Shown here: piece after piece, positions 27,343 through 29,180 of the stretch
Layout of the letters: each line of letters begins with the position of its first letter
How positions within the stretch are numbered: position 1 is the first letter of the stretch
IMG/VR virus record: IMGVR_UViG_3300017917_004390
Span: 29,193-93,192 of that record
Direction: 5' to 3' (one strand)
Origin: a virus
Length of the DNA: 64,000 nt
The notes under the pieces: model-generated
The model's input: only the letters and a program-made list of their open reading frames with translations
Databases searched by the model: none
What the model was told of the DNA's origin: nothing
Translations under genes and position numbers: made by a program

Positions 27343-27789
27343 ATGAATTATACACAAGAACAGAAAGACCTATTACTTGATAAATTATTTGATGGAGTTG
27401 TTTGTCTCAATATTTATCGTAGAATTGATATTATACATAAAAATAATAAAATTTCATGGTACAAACCAAAATATAATTTTTTTTGGTTAAATTACCATCA
27501 AATATGGCAATTTTTTGAAAACAAAAATGGTTCTAATTACCAAGAAATCAAAGACTTAACTGAGGGTATCCTGAAAGACCTTATAAAACAAAAGGAACTC
27601 ACAACTGCACCCGACCGGACCTTTTGGCATATAGACCTGAAAGACCTTATAAAACAAAAGGAACTCACAACAACCGAACCATTTGTACACTCCGCTCAAC
27701 TCCTGAAAGACCTTATAAAACAAAAGGAACTCACAACGCTTCCTGAATTACTTTTTGATTTTCTTAACCTGAAATACCTTACAATATGA
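27343..27789 (+). CDS. Repeat-associated paralog 1 (unknown function); C-terminus encoded by a CRISPR-like array
   Basis: MNYTQEQKDLLLDKLFDGVV family; LKDLIKQKELTT occurs three times, separated by 10 unique residues. Confidence 0.8.
   Translation: MNYTQEQKDLLLDKLFDGVVCLNIYRRIDIIHKNNKISWYKPKYNFFWLNYHQIWQFFENKNGSNYQEIKDLTEGILKDLIKQKELTTAPDRTFWHIDLKDLIKQKELTTTEPFVHSAQLLKDLIKQKELTTLPELLFDFLNLKYLTI
27570..27784. CRISPR. CRISPR-like mini-array: 3 identical 36-nt repeats, a partial 4th repeat and three 30-nt spacers
   Basis: CCTGAAAGACCTTATAAAACAAAAGGAACTCACAAC at 27570-27605, 27636-27671 and 27702-27737; partial CCTGAAATACCTTACAA at 27768-27784; unique spacers at 27606-27635, 27672-27701 and 27738-27767. 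Confidence 0.85.
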
Positions 27790-28073
27790 ATTATACCCAA
27801 GAACAGAAACAATTATTACTCGATAATCTCTTTGATGGGGTTGTTTATTTTAATATTTTTGAAGATATCAATATTATTCATAGAAATCGTTTTTTTTCAA
27901 TATATCAACTAAAATATAACAAGTTTTGGTTAAGTCAACCTAACATTTGGAGATTTTTTGAAAATGAAAAAAGAAATAACTTCTATCAAATCATTGAATT
28001 AACACAAAATATCCTGAAAGACCTTACAAAACAAAAAAATATTAGAACTGAAAACTTACGACTGAAAATTTAG
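27786..28073 (+). CDS. Repeat-associated paralog 2
   Basis: MNYTQEQKQLLLDNLFDGVV; ends in a degenerate repeat. Confidence 0.8.
   Translation: MNYTQEQKQLLLDNLFDGVVYFNIFEDINIIHRNRFFSIYQLKYNKFWLSQPNIWRFFENEKRNNFYQIIELTQNILKDLTKQKNIRTENLRLKI
28013..28048. repeat. Degenerate copy of the 36-nt repeat
   Basis: CCTGAAAGACCTTACAAAACAAAAAAATATTAGAAC, about 7 mismatches. Confidence 0.7.
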
Positions 28074-28103
28074 AACAATAGTTCTAATACTCATAATTAA
28101 TAT

Positions 28104-28457
28104 ATGACCTACACACAAGAACAAAAAGACCTCTTACTTGATAAACTCTTTGATGGAGTAATTTGTCTGGATATCTATAATAATATTGAAATTATACATA
28201 AAAATAGTAATATATCATATTATATATTTGGAAGTAATACTTTTAGATTAAGTTGGAGTAATATTTGGAAATTTTTTGAGAATGAAAAAAATGATAATCA
28301 ACAAGAAATTGAAGAATTAACATCTAATATCTTAATAGACCTTACAAAACGAGAGGGAATTAAAACACATCAACGCTATACTTCAATAGAATGGAGCGAA
28401 TATCGACTTAAAAATCCGAATATTACAATTCAAGAAATAATTTTTCGTTATTTTTAA
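28104..28457 (+). CDS. Repeat-associated paralog 3
   Basis: MTYTQEQKDLLLDKLFDGVI. Confidence 0.8.
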   Translation: MTYTQEQKDLLLDKLFDGVICLDIYNNIEIIHKNSNISYYIFGSNTFRLSWSNIWKFFENEKNDNQQEIEELTSNILIDLTKREGIKTHQRYTSIEWSEYRLKNPNITIQEIIFRYF

Positions 28458-28515
28458 GACCATGTTTTTCGAAAAGAAACGAATAATATCTATTACCCTA
28501 ATAGACCTTACAAAA
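28331..28515. repeat. Variant 36-nt repeat (28331-28366) and matching partial repeat (28497-28515)
   Basis: CTTAATAGACCTTACAAAACGAGAGGGAATTAAAAC and CCTAATAGACCTTACAAAA. Confidence 0.65.
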
Positions 28516-28524
28516 TAATATTAT

Positions 28525-28848
28525 ATGAAATACACACAAGAACAAAAAGACCTACTACTTGACCGTCTCTTTGATGGAGTTGTTTTTTTTAATATATATG
28601 ATACAATTCGTATTACACATATAAATAATAAAAAATCATGGTACAACCCAAAAACTAGTCTATTTTGGTTAAGCTATAGTAATATTTGGCATTTTTTTGA
28701 GAATGAAAATATATATAATTTTCAAGAAATCAAATACTTAATTGAGCCTATCCTGAGAGACACTACAGAACGAAAGGAACTCACAACTAACGCTTGGATG
28801 GATATTGCTCGATGCTGTCTAAAAAGAAAGGAACTTACAAAACAATAA
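28525..28848 (+). CDS. Repeat-associated paralog 4
   Basis: MKYTQEQKDLLLDRLFDGVV. Confidence 0.8.
   Translation: MKYTQEQKDLLLDRLFDGVVFFNIYDTIRITHINNKKSWYNPKTSLFWLSYSNIWHFFENENIYNFQEIKYLIEPILRDTTERKELTTNAWMDIARCCLKRKELTKQ
28752..28845. CRISPR. Repeat, 30-nt spacer and eroded repeat unit
   Basis: CCTGAGAGACACTACAGAACGAAAGGAACTCACAAC at 28752-28787; spacer TAACGCTTGGATGGATATTGCTCGATGCTG; remnant TCTAAAAAGAAAGGAACTTACAAAAC. Confidence 0.65.
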
Positions 28849-28851
28849 AAT

Positions 28852-29133
28852 ATGACTTACACACAAGAACAAAAAGAACTACTACTTGACAAACTCTTTG
28901 ATGGAGTTGTTTGTATGGATATCTACTATGATATTGATATTATTCATAGAAGTTATGGGTTATCATACTACAACCCAAAAACTAATGAATTTGTGTTAAG
29001 CTATAATTATATTTGGAAGTTTTTTGAGAATGAAAATAGAGATAATTACTATGAAATCGAAGAATTAATATCTAGTATCCTGAGAGACACTACAGAACGA
29101 AAGGAACTTATAACAAATTATTGGCGGGGCTGA
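28852..29133 (+). CDS. Repeat-associated paralog 5
   Basis: MTYTQEQKELLLDKLFDGVV; stops at a TGA inside the spacer. Confidence 0.8.
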   Translation: MTYTQEQKELLLDKLFDGVVCMDIYYDIDIIHRSYGLSYYNPKTNEFVLSYNYIWKFFENENRDNYYEIEELISSILRDTTERKELITNYWRG

Positions 29134-29180
29134 AATCGAAGACCACTGAGAGACCTTACAAAACAAAAGGAACTCACAAC
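29079..29180. CRISPR. Repeat, 30-nt spacer and repeat unit
   Basis: Repeats at 29079-29114 and 29145-29180 (ACTGAGAGACCTTACAAAACAAAAGGAACTCACAAC); spacer AAATTATTGGCGGGGCTGAAATCGAAGACC. Confidence 0.75.

What the first reader, a model, noticed from the sequence alone, without database searches (positions are those of the whole stretch)
27343..29180. Tandem gene + CRISPR-like mini-array cassettes: five paralogs whose C-termini are encoded by 36-nt repeat / 30-nt spacer units
Seen: five consecutive paralogs share a roughly 75-aa domain (M.YTQEQK.LLLD.LFDGV...W.FFEN....EI..L). Each runs in-frame into a 36-nt repeat (consensus CCTGARAGACCTTAYAAAACAAAAGGAACTCACAAC, read as LKDL.K.KELTT) followed by unique sequence. 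Wherever two intact repeats bracket a spacer, it is exactly 30 nt. Unit 1 has three identical repeats and three spacers. The 66-nt period keeps the frame, so each unit adds 22 residues. In unit 5 a stop falls inside the spacer and a near-perfect repeat follows outside the ORF, so the periodicity is a nucleotide-level feature. Known: 36/30 geometry with a GTTG.../...CAAC end typifies type II and type VI-B arrays, and phages carry cas-less mini-arrays. Not known to me: arrays fused inside the coding 3' end of a dedicated, serially duplicated gene. Inference, three models: (a) each cassette supplies a small protein plus guide RNAs that co-opt or inhibit a host Cas9/Cas13; (b) the protein is a new RNA-binding or RNA-guided factor; (c) spacer insertion diversifies the protein C-terminus.
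Basis: partly seen in the sequence, partly recalled or inferred. Interest (0 to 1): 0.96.

Follow-up and report, generated by a model that had tools for sequence, protein, structure and literature searches.

The report
Phage genes ending in CRISPR arrays
Five tandem copies of a small phage gene each run straight into a short CRISPR-type repeat-spacer array with Cas13b-array dimensions; the same cassette recurs in many uncultured phages, where some spacers are copies of the phage's own DNA, and it probably subverts host CRISPR immunity, though this is untested.

Summary
Five paralogs (27343-29133, + strand) share a roughly 75-aa domain under purifying selection. Each reads in frame into a 36-nt repeat followed by unique 30-nt segments.

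These are real CRISPR-type arrays, not protein repeats:
- Repeats within an array are identical, while spacers are unrelated and compositionally foreign.
- The gene-distal repeat is the decayed one.
- A good repeat lies outside ORF 5.

The protein family is wide. In 13 other viral contigs the homologous gene is followed by 36-nt repeat arrays with 29-32-nt spacers. Some of those repeats clearly resemble repeats next to cas13b in Weeksellaceae. The window's own repeat resembles them only weakly overall. However, its last 15-16 nt are identical to type II-C (Cas9) repeats of Weeksellaceae, the systems known to supply Cas1-Cas2 in trans to VI-B arrays.

In two relatives, 6 of 13 spacers match the phage's own genome at 97-100%. 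None of the phage records examined showed a Cas1 or Cas13b homolog.

Best reading: gene-anchored VI-B-type arrays fed by host adaptation enzymes, probably acting as decoys. The function is inferred, not shown.

This scan has noted the same cassette on other phage DNA (six notes). I found no published description.

The parts
27343..27789 (+). Cassette 1: gene (148-aa ORF). The domain is codons 1-75; the ORF reads through three repeats and three spacers.
   Evidence: dN/dS of the domain 0.36-0.42 against other units
27570..27605 (+). Cassette 1, repeat 1 (gene-proximal; also encodes the last residues of the folded domain)
   Evidence: the AF2 helix 63-81 of the paralog model runs into the repeat-encoded residues
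27606..27635 (+). Cassette 1, spacer 1 (30 nt, 53% GC)
27636..27671 (+). Cassette 1, repeat 2 (identical to repeat 1)
27672..27701 (+). Cassette 1, spacer 2 (30 nt, 47% GC)
27702..27737 (+). Cassette 1, repeat 3 (identical to repeat 1)
27738..27767 (+). Cassette 1, spacer 3 (30 nt, 27% GC)
27768..27788 (+). Cassette 1, degenerate terminal repeat. It keeps only the 5' half and overlaps the start codon of the next gene.
27786..28073 (+). Cassette 2: gene (95 aa) with a decayed repeat at 28013-28048 (81% identity; the 3' end is lost)
28104..28457 (+). Cassette 3: gene (117 aa) with a decayed repeat at 28331-28366 (73%) and a 5'-half repeat stump at about 28497-28515
   Evidence: families D2, D3
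28525..28848 (+). Cassette 4: gene (107 aa); repeat at 28752-28787 (84%; its last 16 nt equal host II-C repeats); 32-nt spacer at 28788-28819 (47% GC); 3'-half repeat stump at 28820-28840
28852..29133 (+). Cassette 5: gene (93 aa); repeat at 29079-29114 (78%); the stop codon lies inside the spacer
29115..29144 (+). Cassette 5, spacer (30 nt, 47% GC)
29145..29180 (+). Cassette 5, second repeat (3 mismatches to the unit-1 repeat), outside any ORF

Best explanation
Each cassette is a small phage gene whose 3' end doubles as the leader and first repeat of a Cas13b-type (type VI-B dimensions: 36-nt repeat, 30-nt spacer) CRISPR mini-array.

The phage records examined showed no Cas1 or Cas13b homolog, and the window's record also none of Cas9 or Cas2. 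The inferred mechanism is that the host's type II-C Cas1-Cas2 integrase inserts 30-nt prespacers just behind the gene during infection and duplicates the repeat. This integrase is known to serve VI-B arrays in trans in Flavobacteriia.

The inferred benefit is counter-defence. Many leader-repeat mimics sit on a replicating phage genome (5 here; roughly a dozen homologs on each of two related contigs). They would soak up spacer integration that would otherwise immunise the host. Being transcribed with the gene in crRNA sense, they may also load Cas13b with harmless guides.

Shown: the array anatomy, its polarity, the kinship of the repeats, and self-derived spacers in relatives.

Inferred: which enzyme inserts the spacers, that the cassettes are selected as decoys, and any role of the protein (possibly binding its own leader DNA).
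For: 1. Array anatomy. Identical repeats with unrelated 30-nt spacers. Paralogous or orthologous cassettes are 76-89% identical in the gene and 83-100% in the first repeat. Their first spacers are at background identity: 0.43-0.53 against a null median of 0.53.
2. Foreign spacers. Four of seven post-repeat 30-mers have 47-53% GC. Only 1.8% of 30-mers in this 25.6% GC phage reach 45%.
3. Nucleotide-level constraint. In the repeat, codon position 3 is the most conserved (0.82) and dN is about equal to dS. In the domain, position 3 is the least conserved (0.65) and dN/dS is 0.25-0.49.
4. Polarity. The decayed or truncated repeats lie at the gene-distal end here and in 10 related arrays. Host II-C and VI-B arrays decay the same way at the leader-distal end.
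5. Family-wide link. The profile search found 35 proteins. Distant members show the same 22-aa period with different repeat peptides. Thirteen viral loci have arrays of 36-nt repeats and 29-32-nt spacers starting inside the homologous gene.
6. Kinship of repeats. Repeats of L060, L061, L073, L075 and L037 match repeats next to cas13b better than at least 198 of 200 shuffles. The window repeat's last 15-16 nt are identical to II-C repeats of Empedobacter, Algoriella, Apibacter and others. It is 11 nt shorter than those repeats. PMC8092290 reports that same length difference, and a shared leader-distal motif, between VI-B and II-C repeats within single species; the motif it names is only 5 nt.
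7. Live acquisition from DNA present in infected cells. Five of nine spacers in G404 and one of four in G406 match the phage's own genome at 97-100%.
8. No cas genes on the phages. tblastn of the window's record found no Cas9, Cas1 or Cas2. The Cas1 model found nothing in G000, G402 (complete) or G403. A Cas13b query found nothing in five records.
Against: - The function is not shown.
- No host array with this exact 36-nt repeat was found.
- The window's repeat lacks the 5' GTTG of Cas13b repeats. Overall it is only weakly similar to them: 21-22 of 36 matches, equalled by 3-15 of 200 shuffles.
- The window's own spacers have no identified source. Their high GC is not what self-sampling of a 25% GC phage predicts, although only about 30% of the genome is in hand.
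- A pure integration sink does not explain why the leader must encode a conserved protein.
- How a II-C integrase tuned to 46-50-nt repeats would duplicate a 36-nt repeat is an open problem even for host VI-B arrays (PMC8092290).
Confidence: 0.4

Rival explanations
1. RNA-level decoy or competitor. The gene's mRNA carries Cas13b-type repeats in crRNA sense. Abundant phage transcripts would occupy Cas13b (or its processing site) with non-productive guides, like RNA anti-CRISPRs or viral crRNA-like RNAs. The spacers would be a side effect of looking like an array.
For: The gene sense equals the VI-B crRNA sense, and VI-B arrays are transcribed from the leader side (PMC8092290). The hairpins in the repeats of L061 and L065 include G-U pairs that work only on this strand (read by eye). 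The multicopy tandem layout suits a dosage effect. Precedents are Racr (PMC10651486), viral crlRNAs (bioRxiv 10.1101/2024.10.29.618823) and viral sgRNA/scaRNA (bioRxiv 10.64898/2026.06.01.729453).
Against: The window's repeat has lost the 5' GTTG that closes the Cas13b repeat hairpin. No consensus structure emerges across lineages. The single-repeat fold is not better than shuffles. Known Racrs are non-coding solitary repeats, not translated arrays. The best-conserved part of the window's repeat matches II-C (integrase-linked) repeats rather than Cas13b-linked ones.
Confidence: 0.22
2. By-product. The protein has an unrelated job. Its 3' end merely happens to be a hot spot for off-target spacer integration by host Cas1-Cas2, and the arrays are neutral scars.
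For: Self-derived spacers, some in mRNA-complementary sense, look unselected. Many cassettes have decayed repeats (units 2 and 3). Tails end at chance stops.
Against: The repeat is kept across very divergent lineages, always 36 nt and always in the same frame position. In the window it carries a 15-16-nt block identical to host II-C repeats. The part encoding KELTT lies beyond the last helix of the folded domain and in a lower-confidence stretch of the model. That part is nevertheless kept in about 60% of close homologs, which points to selection on the DNA or RNA.
Confidence: 0.17
3. Inter-virus weapon or self-regulation. The mini-arrays make working guides for host Cas13b (or Cas9) against competing related phages, as for archaeal virus mini-arrays, or to tune the phage's own transcripts.
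For: Viral mini-arrays with 1-2 spacers against related viruses are established (PMC11656645). Three of six self-matching spacers in relatives carry one mismatch to self, as expected if they were taken from a close relative.
Against: Three spacers match the carrier phage perfectly. At least two lie in the sense complementary to a long ORF's mRNA. With an active Cas13b that would trigger collateral RNase against the carrier itself. No repeat identical to a host array was found.
Confidence: 0.1
4. Protein diversification. Spacer insertion is used to rewrite the C-terminal tail of the protein.
For: The 66-nt period keeps the frame, and the newest spacer is the one translated. ORFs read through whole arrays in some relatives, for example a 760-aa ORF with five domain copies.
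Against: About two thirds of close family members stop within the first 10 codons after the repeat, roughly the chance expectation by my estimate. Arrays continue after stops (unit 5; L037 copy 1). The modelled tail has low confidence.
Confidence: 0.06
5. Type II-C crRNA-like units read from the minus strand, pairing with host tracrRNA to programme or mislead Cas9.
For: The minus strand begins with the 15-16 nt that pair with the tracrRNA anti-repeat found upstream of cas9 in Empedobacter. The variable segment sits exactly where a guide would. Viral scaRNAs are a precedent.
Against: The phage repeat lacks the TAnnTTT(A/G) element present inside all the host II-C repeats (read by eye). All neighbouring genes are on the + strand. 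Minus-strand promoter-like sites are no more frequent than in shuffles. The relatives' repeats are Cas13b-type, not II-C-type.
Confidence: 0.05

Closest known systems
Type VI-B (Cas13b) CRISPR arrays of Flavobacteriales that gain spacers in trans through the co-resident type II-C Cas1-Cas2 (F. columnare; PMC8092290)
   Same: 36-nt repeat and 30-nt spacers. The repeat ends in TCACAAC. The leader side is upstream in crRNA sense. The terminal repeat decays. No adaptation genes sit next to the array. The repeat is 11 nt shorter than II-C repeats carrying the same 15-16-nt end.
   Different: The array is on a phage with no cas13b. The leader is a conserved protein-coding gene and the first repeat is translated. 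There are only 1-5 spacers per array, but many arrays. The window's repeat lacks the 5' GTTG. Some relatives' spacers are copies of the carrier's own genome.
Virus-borne mini-CRISPR arrays (Medvedeva et al. 2019, as reviewed in PMC11656645)
   Same: Arrays without cas genes, holding one to a few spacers, on viral genomes and dependent on host Cas proteins.
   Different: Known mini-arrays have repeats identical to the host's and spacers against related viruses. They are non-coding, with an ordinary leader. Here no identical host repeat was found, perfect self-matches occur in relatives, and the array is fused in frame to a dedicated, tandemly amplified gene.
RNA anti-CRISPRs (Racr, solitary repeat units; PMC10651486) and viral crRNA-like or scaRNA-like RNAs (bioRxiv 10.1101/2024.10.29.618823; 10.64898/2026.06.01.729453)
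   Same: Phage-borne mimics of CRISPR repeats that could bind Cas proteins unproductively, often in multiple copies.
   Different: Those are small non-coding RNAs with no guide or a conserved regulatory guide. Here the mimic is inside an ORF and carries variable, turned-over spacers. The papers read here do not describe a VI-B case.
Off-target ('neo-CRISPR') spacer integration by Cas1-Cas2 at non-CRISPR sites (recalled from Nivala et al. 2018; not read here)
   Same: Spacer insertion with duplication of the adjacent sequence at a site outside a canonical cas-linked array.
   Different: Here the site is conserved, repeat-like and recurrent across a whole phage gene family, which suggests selection rather than accident.

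Membership tests
CRISPR array (generic) | Near-identical direct repeats separated by unique spacers of constant length | tested here: met
   Three identical 36-nt repeats at 66-nt spacing plus a fourth with 3 mismatches; 0 expected by chance.
CRISPR array (generic) | Polarity: intact repeats at the leader end, degenerate terminal repeat | tested here: met
   Gene-distal repeats are truncated or mutated here and in 10 related arrays, as in host arrays.
CRISPR array (generic) | Spacers are independent acquisitions with identifiable sources (protospacers) | tested here: inconclusive
   Window: spacers are unrelated between paralogs and foreign in GC, but no source was found. Relatives: 6 of 13 spacers in G404 and G406 match the carrier genome at 97-100%.
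CRISPR array (generic) | Associated cas genes | tested here: not met
   tblastn of the 93-kb record found no Cas9, Cas1 or Cas2. The Cas1 model found nothing in three records, including a complete 364-kb relative. A Cas13b query found nothing in five records. The window's record is only about 30% complete.
CRISPR array (generic) | Transcription and processing into crRNAs | not testable with these tools
Type VI-B (Cas13b) array | 36-nt repeat with about 30-nt spacers | tested here: met
   Host arrays next to cas13b have the same dimensions.
Type VI-B (Cas13b) array | Repeat sequence of the GTTG...CAAC Cas13b type | tested here: inconclusive
   Window repeat: the 3' TCACAAC is shared and the 5' GTTG is absent; 21-22 of 36 matches, equalled by 3-15 of 200 shuffles. 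Relatives L060, L061, L073, L075 and L037: 23-26 of 36 matches, equalled by 0-2 of 200 shuffles.
Type VI-B (Cas13b) array | Leader upstream of the array in crRNA sense | tested here: met
   The gene and the repeat sense coincide. In G104 the slightly altered last repeat lies at the 3' end of the array in repeat sense. The direction of transcription comes from PMC8092290. Expression itself was not tested.
Type VI-B (Cas13b) array | cas13b adjacent | tested here: not met
   No Cas13b homolog in G000, G402, G404, G405 or G406.
Type II-C (Cas9) array | Repeat matches host II-C repeats over its whole length | tested here: not met
   Only the last 15-16 nt are identical. Host II-C repeats with that end are 46-50 nt long.
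Type II-C (Cas9) array | Repeat-internal promoter element driving each crRNA | tested here: not met
   All host II-C repeats carry TAnnTTT(A/G) near positions 23-31 in crRNA sense. The phage repeat does not (read by eye).
Viral mini-CRISPR arrays | Repeats identical to the host's CRISPR repeats | tested here: inconclusive
   No identical or near-identical repeat in IMG/VR, JGI metagenome contigs or 401 Weeksellaceae genomes, and no 36/30 array carrying the repeat's last 12 nt in the GTDB species genomes. The true host may be unsampled.
Viral mini-CRISPR arrays | Spacers target related viruses, not the carrier | tested here: inconclusive
   Window: no matches. Relatives: three perfect and three one-mismatch matches to the carrier itself.
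RNA anti-CRISPR (solitary repeat unit) | Single non-coding repeat without spacers | tested here: not met
   The repeats lie in ORFs and form arrays with spacers.

The most novel reading that the evidence does not exclude
The cassettes are a phage counter-defence that acts at the adaptation stage. They would be tandemly amplified leader-repeat decoys, each made of a gene whose product helps recruit the host Cas1-Cas2 integrase. The decoys capture prespacers, including ones cut from the phage itself, so that the host's own II-C and VI-B arrays are not immunised. No anti-CRISPR strategy of this kind appears in the papers I read.
Probability: 0.3. Interest if true: 0.92.

Novelty: new variant of a known kind. 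Interest (0 to 1): 0.82.

Why it matters
Phage-borne CRISPR parts are known as mini-arrays, solitary repeats and guide-like RNAs. Here the leader is a conserved protein gene, the first repeat is translated, and the cassette is amplified in tandem. Related phages carry arrays holding copies of their own DNA.

If the cassettes are substrates of host Cas1-Cas2, three things follow:
- They give a natural record of spacer capture inside infected cells.
- They offer a handle on how II-C integrases serve 36-nt VI-B repeats, which PMC8092290 leaves open.
- They may be the first anti-CRISPR mechanism aimed at immunisation rather than interference.

The small protein has no known fold or family. It could be a new leader-binding or Cas-binding factor.

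Tried and rejected
Searches on the region and the protein that found nothing useful:
- Rfam on the region: only chance-level hits.
- Pfam, PHROGs and PADLOC on the paralogs and distant homologs: nothing above threshold.
- AlphaFold model (pLDDT 77): no Foldseek PDB hit with E of 0.001 or better; best VIA-align Z was 4.5.
- ESM Atlas: no usable hit.
- Profile against PDB sequences: one weak hit to 1vpy (E 5e-4), not pursued.

DNA of the closest relatives could not be fetched. These are JGI contigs of 87, 67 and 46 kb, known only through their proteins.
- Protein-pattern scans of IMG/VR and of metagenome contigs confirmed nothing.
- Exact scans for the repeat in IMG/VR and metagenome contigs gave nothing.

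Spacer sources for the window were not found:
- phage database
- plasmids, unit-1 array only
- one spacer against IMG/VR
- the phage's own 93 kb
- spacers of the fetched host arrays against the phage

My first reading was a type II-C array read from the minus strand. I demoted it after finding Cas13b-type repeats in relatives and no internal promoter element.

Other negative results:
- No consensus RNA structure across lineages.
- No PAM-like motif at six self-protospacers.
- Protospacer hunts for relatives' arrays in the phage database: nothing convincing.
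Full report
WHAT IS THERE

The window is part of a 93-kb IMG/VR virus record (25.6% GC, CheckV estimate 30% complete). It belongs to a myovirus-like phage with a tail sheath, baseplate wedge and major head protein.

Five head-to-tail ORFs lie between an SbcD-like exonuclease gene and a 3'-5' exonuclease gene. They sit at 27343-27789, 27786-28073, 28104-28457, 28525-28848 and 28852-29133. They share 37 invariant residues in their first 88 codons.

Each ORF runs in frame into a 36-nt repeat.
- Unit 1 has three identical copies at 27570, 27636 and 27702, separated by unrelated 30-nt segments, plus a fourth truncated copy that overlaps the next start codon.
- Unit 5 has a diverged repeat, a 30-nt segment containing the stop codon, and then a well-kept repeat (3 mismatches) outside any ORF.
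- Units 2 and 3 have decayed repeats.
- Unit 4 has a repeat, 32 nt, and a half-repeat.
No such repeat is expected by chance. The record holds exactly these five copies.

CODING GENE PLUS NUCLEOTIDE-LEVEL REPEAT

The 75-codon domain evolves like a protein. dN/dS is 0.25-0.49 in nine of ten pairs, and the third codon position is the least conserved (0.65).

The repeat-encoded 13 codons behave differently. There the third position is the most conserved (0.82) and dN is about equal to dS.

An AlphaFold model built on 29 homologs (pLDDT 77) gives a helix, four strands and two helices, plus a fourth lower-confidence helix in the tail. The third helix (residues 63-81) ends inside the repeat-encoded residues. 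The 3' half of the repeat lies beyond that helix, where model confidence falls. No known family or fold matches.

THE SPACERS ARE INDEPENDENT INSERTS

Four of the seven 30-mers that follow repeats have 47-53% GC. Only 1.8% of 30-mers in this phage reach 45%.

Between paralogs the gene is 76-78% identical and the first repeat 83-94%. The first spacer is at background level, 0.43-0.47 against a null median of 0.53. The same pattern holds in three pairs from other phages.

THE CASSETTE IS A FAMILY TRAIT

A word-indexed search found 25 close homologs on only three other JGI contigs, about a dozen on each of two of them. All end in the same repeat-encoded peptide followed by a variable tail. When a tail exceeds 10 residues, it runs into a second repeat peptide.

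A profile search of 1.84 billion representatives found 35 proteins. The distant ones keep the core motif and again show a 22-residue period. Their repeat peptides differ from the window's but are 12 residues long and separated by variable 10-residue inserts. Some ORFs fuse up to five domain copies with their arrays.

DNA of the closest relatives could not be fetched. Two protein-pattern scans of IMG/VR did return 25 loci for the distant groups.

In 13 of those loci the homologous gene is followed directly by an array of 2-6 repeats of 36 nt, with spacers of 29-32 nt. Mismatches are concentrated in the gene-distal repeats. One stop codon again falls in a spacer with a perfect repeat after it.

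WHICH CRISPR TYPE

A periodic scan of 185,579 species genomes, using the last 12 nt of the window's repeat, hit genuine arrays in Empedobacter, Algoriella, Apibacter, Paenimyroides, Flavobacterium and several Bacteroidales.
- These are type II-C: cas9, cas1 and cas2 precede the array.
- A tracrRNA-like anti-repeat with a terminator lies upstream of cas9.
- Their repeats are 46-50 nt. They share the final 15 nt with the phage repeat, or 16 nt with unit 4.
- The Algoriella repeat also resembles the phage repeat's 5' end.

I first read this as a II-C array on the minus strand. Two things changed that reading. Earlier notes of this scan pointed to Cas13b-type repeats in similar cassettes. And PMC8092290 reports that in Flavobacteriia with both systems, VI-B repeats are 36 nt, II-C repeats are on average 11 nt longer, and the two share a short leader-distal motif. 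It also shows that in F. columnare the VI-B array gains spacers through the II-C Cas1-Cas2, that VI-B arrays are transcribed from the leader, and that II-C arrays are transcribed towards it.

I then tested the Cas13b link directly.
- 36/30 arrays occur in 5 of 121 sampled Weeksellaceae genomes (a sixth genome's single match is not an array).
- In two of these genomes they sit next to a gene scoring 782-839 bits on NCBIfam's Cas13b model.
- Phage repeats of L060, L061, L073, L075 and L037 match these host repeats better than at least 198 of 200 shuffles.
- The window's repeat does so only weakly: 21-22 of 36 matches, equalled by 3-15 of 200 shuffles. It also lacks the 5' GTTG.

So the cassette family carries Cas13b-type arrays in the same sense as the gene. 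The window's member is a diverged repeat whose leader-distal block is the II-C version.

No near copy of the repeat's 29-nt core (3 or fewer mismatches) exists in 401 Weeksellaceae genomes. The real host is therefore unsampled or different.

WHERE SPACERS COME FROM

The window's spacers match nothing I could search.

Relatives gave a clear result. In G404 (162 kb, 73% complete), five of nine spacers match the phage's own genome elsewhere: two perfectly and three with one mismatch. In G406, one of four matches perfectly. At least two perfect matches are complementary to the mRNA of a long ORF if the array is read in gene sense.

None of three spacers matched in G405, and none of four in G407.

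The phage records examined showed no Cas1 or Cas13b homolog; this includes the complete 364-kb G402. The window's own record also has no Cas9, Cas1 or Cas2 homolog.

MECHANISM

The anatomy is what spacer integration by Cas1-Cas2 produces: exact repeat duplication, 30-nt inserts, gene-proximal freshness, and samples of DNA present in infected cells. Integration by the host enzyme is the economical inference, but it is not shown.

For function I favour a decoy for adaptation (confidence 0.4). The reasons are:
- The conserved block in the window's repeat is the integrase-linked II-C version.
- The cassettes are amplified.
- Perfect self-matches are tolerated.

The rivals are: RNA-level occupation of Cas13b (0.22), neutral scars on a gene with another job (0.17), inter-virus weapons (0.10), tail diversification (0.06) and minus-strand Cas9 guides (0.05). 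None can be excluded without RNA or infection data.

NOVELTY

Viral mini-arrays, solitary repeats and guide-like RNAs are known (PMC11656645, PMC10651486, and the two bioRxiv papers read). I found no description of arrays whose leader is a conserved protein gene and whose first repeat is translated.

The same cassette was noted six times before in this scan on other phage DNA. Those are unchecked AI notes. I tested their two main claims here on independent loci: the Cas13b-type repeat and the self-derived spacers.

LIMITS

Noticed in passing
L005-L036 (host II-C arrays), e.g. L024:7819-7867: Every Bacteroidota II-C repeat found carries a TAnnTTT(A/G) element at about positions 23-31 in crRNA sense. 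This resembles the Bacteroidetes -7 promoter box and fits repeat-internal crRNA promoters. The phage repeat lacks it; the roughly 11 nt missing from the phage repeat fall in this region.
   Followed up: partly
window 27511-27516 and equivalent positions in units 2-5; L024:7760-7765: A T-run followed by an A-rich stretch (it encodes the invariant W-x-F-F-E motif) lies at -59 to -54 from the first repeat in all phage cassettes, including the distant L037 and L038. II-C leaders of Empedobacter, Algoriella and others have a T-run at about -61 to -50. PMC8092290 notes poly(T)/poly(A) tracts in leaders. This could be chance in AT-rich DNA.
   Followed up: partly
L053 / L083 (G056, Cas13b locus): Many repeats of this host VI-B array carry an insert of about 50 nt in the hairpin loop ('long' repeats), alternating with normal 36-nt repeats.
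   Followed up: no
P0030 (760 aa), P0033 (346 aa), P0037 (281 aa): In some relatives, several domain copies and their repeat-spacer-repeat stretches are fused into one long open frame. This is either a poly-protein or a gene-calling effect of stop-free spacers.
   Followed up: no
G405:C1:31600-32530 and 35250-35495; G406:C1:5724-5761, 26348-26386: Related phages carry further arrays or repeat copies of the same type at other places in the genome, not only in tandem.
   Followed up: no
window 25780-27339 and 29224-30542: The cassette block sits between an SbcD-like exonuclease gene and a PolB-type 3'-5' exonuclease gene, followed by an amidase-domain gene. This is a DNA-metabolism neighbourhood.
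   Followed up: partly
window 28852-29133 versus protein P0012 (67-kb JGI contig): Unit 5 and a homolog on another contig end in the same five-residue tail after the repeat. At least one spacer start is therefore shared between two phages (an orthologous, retained spacer).
   Followed up: no
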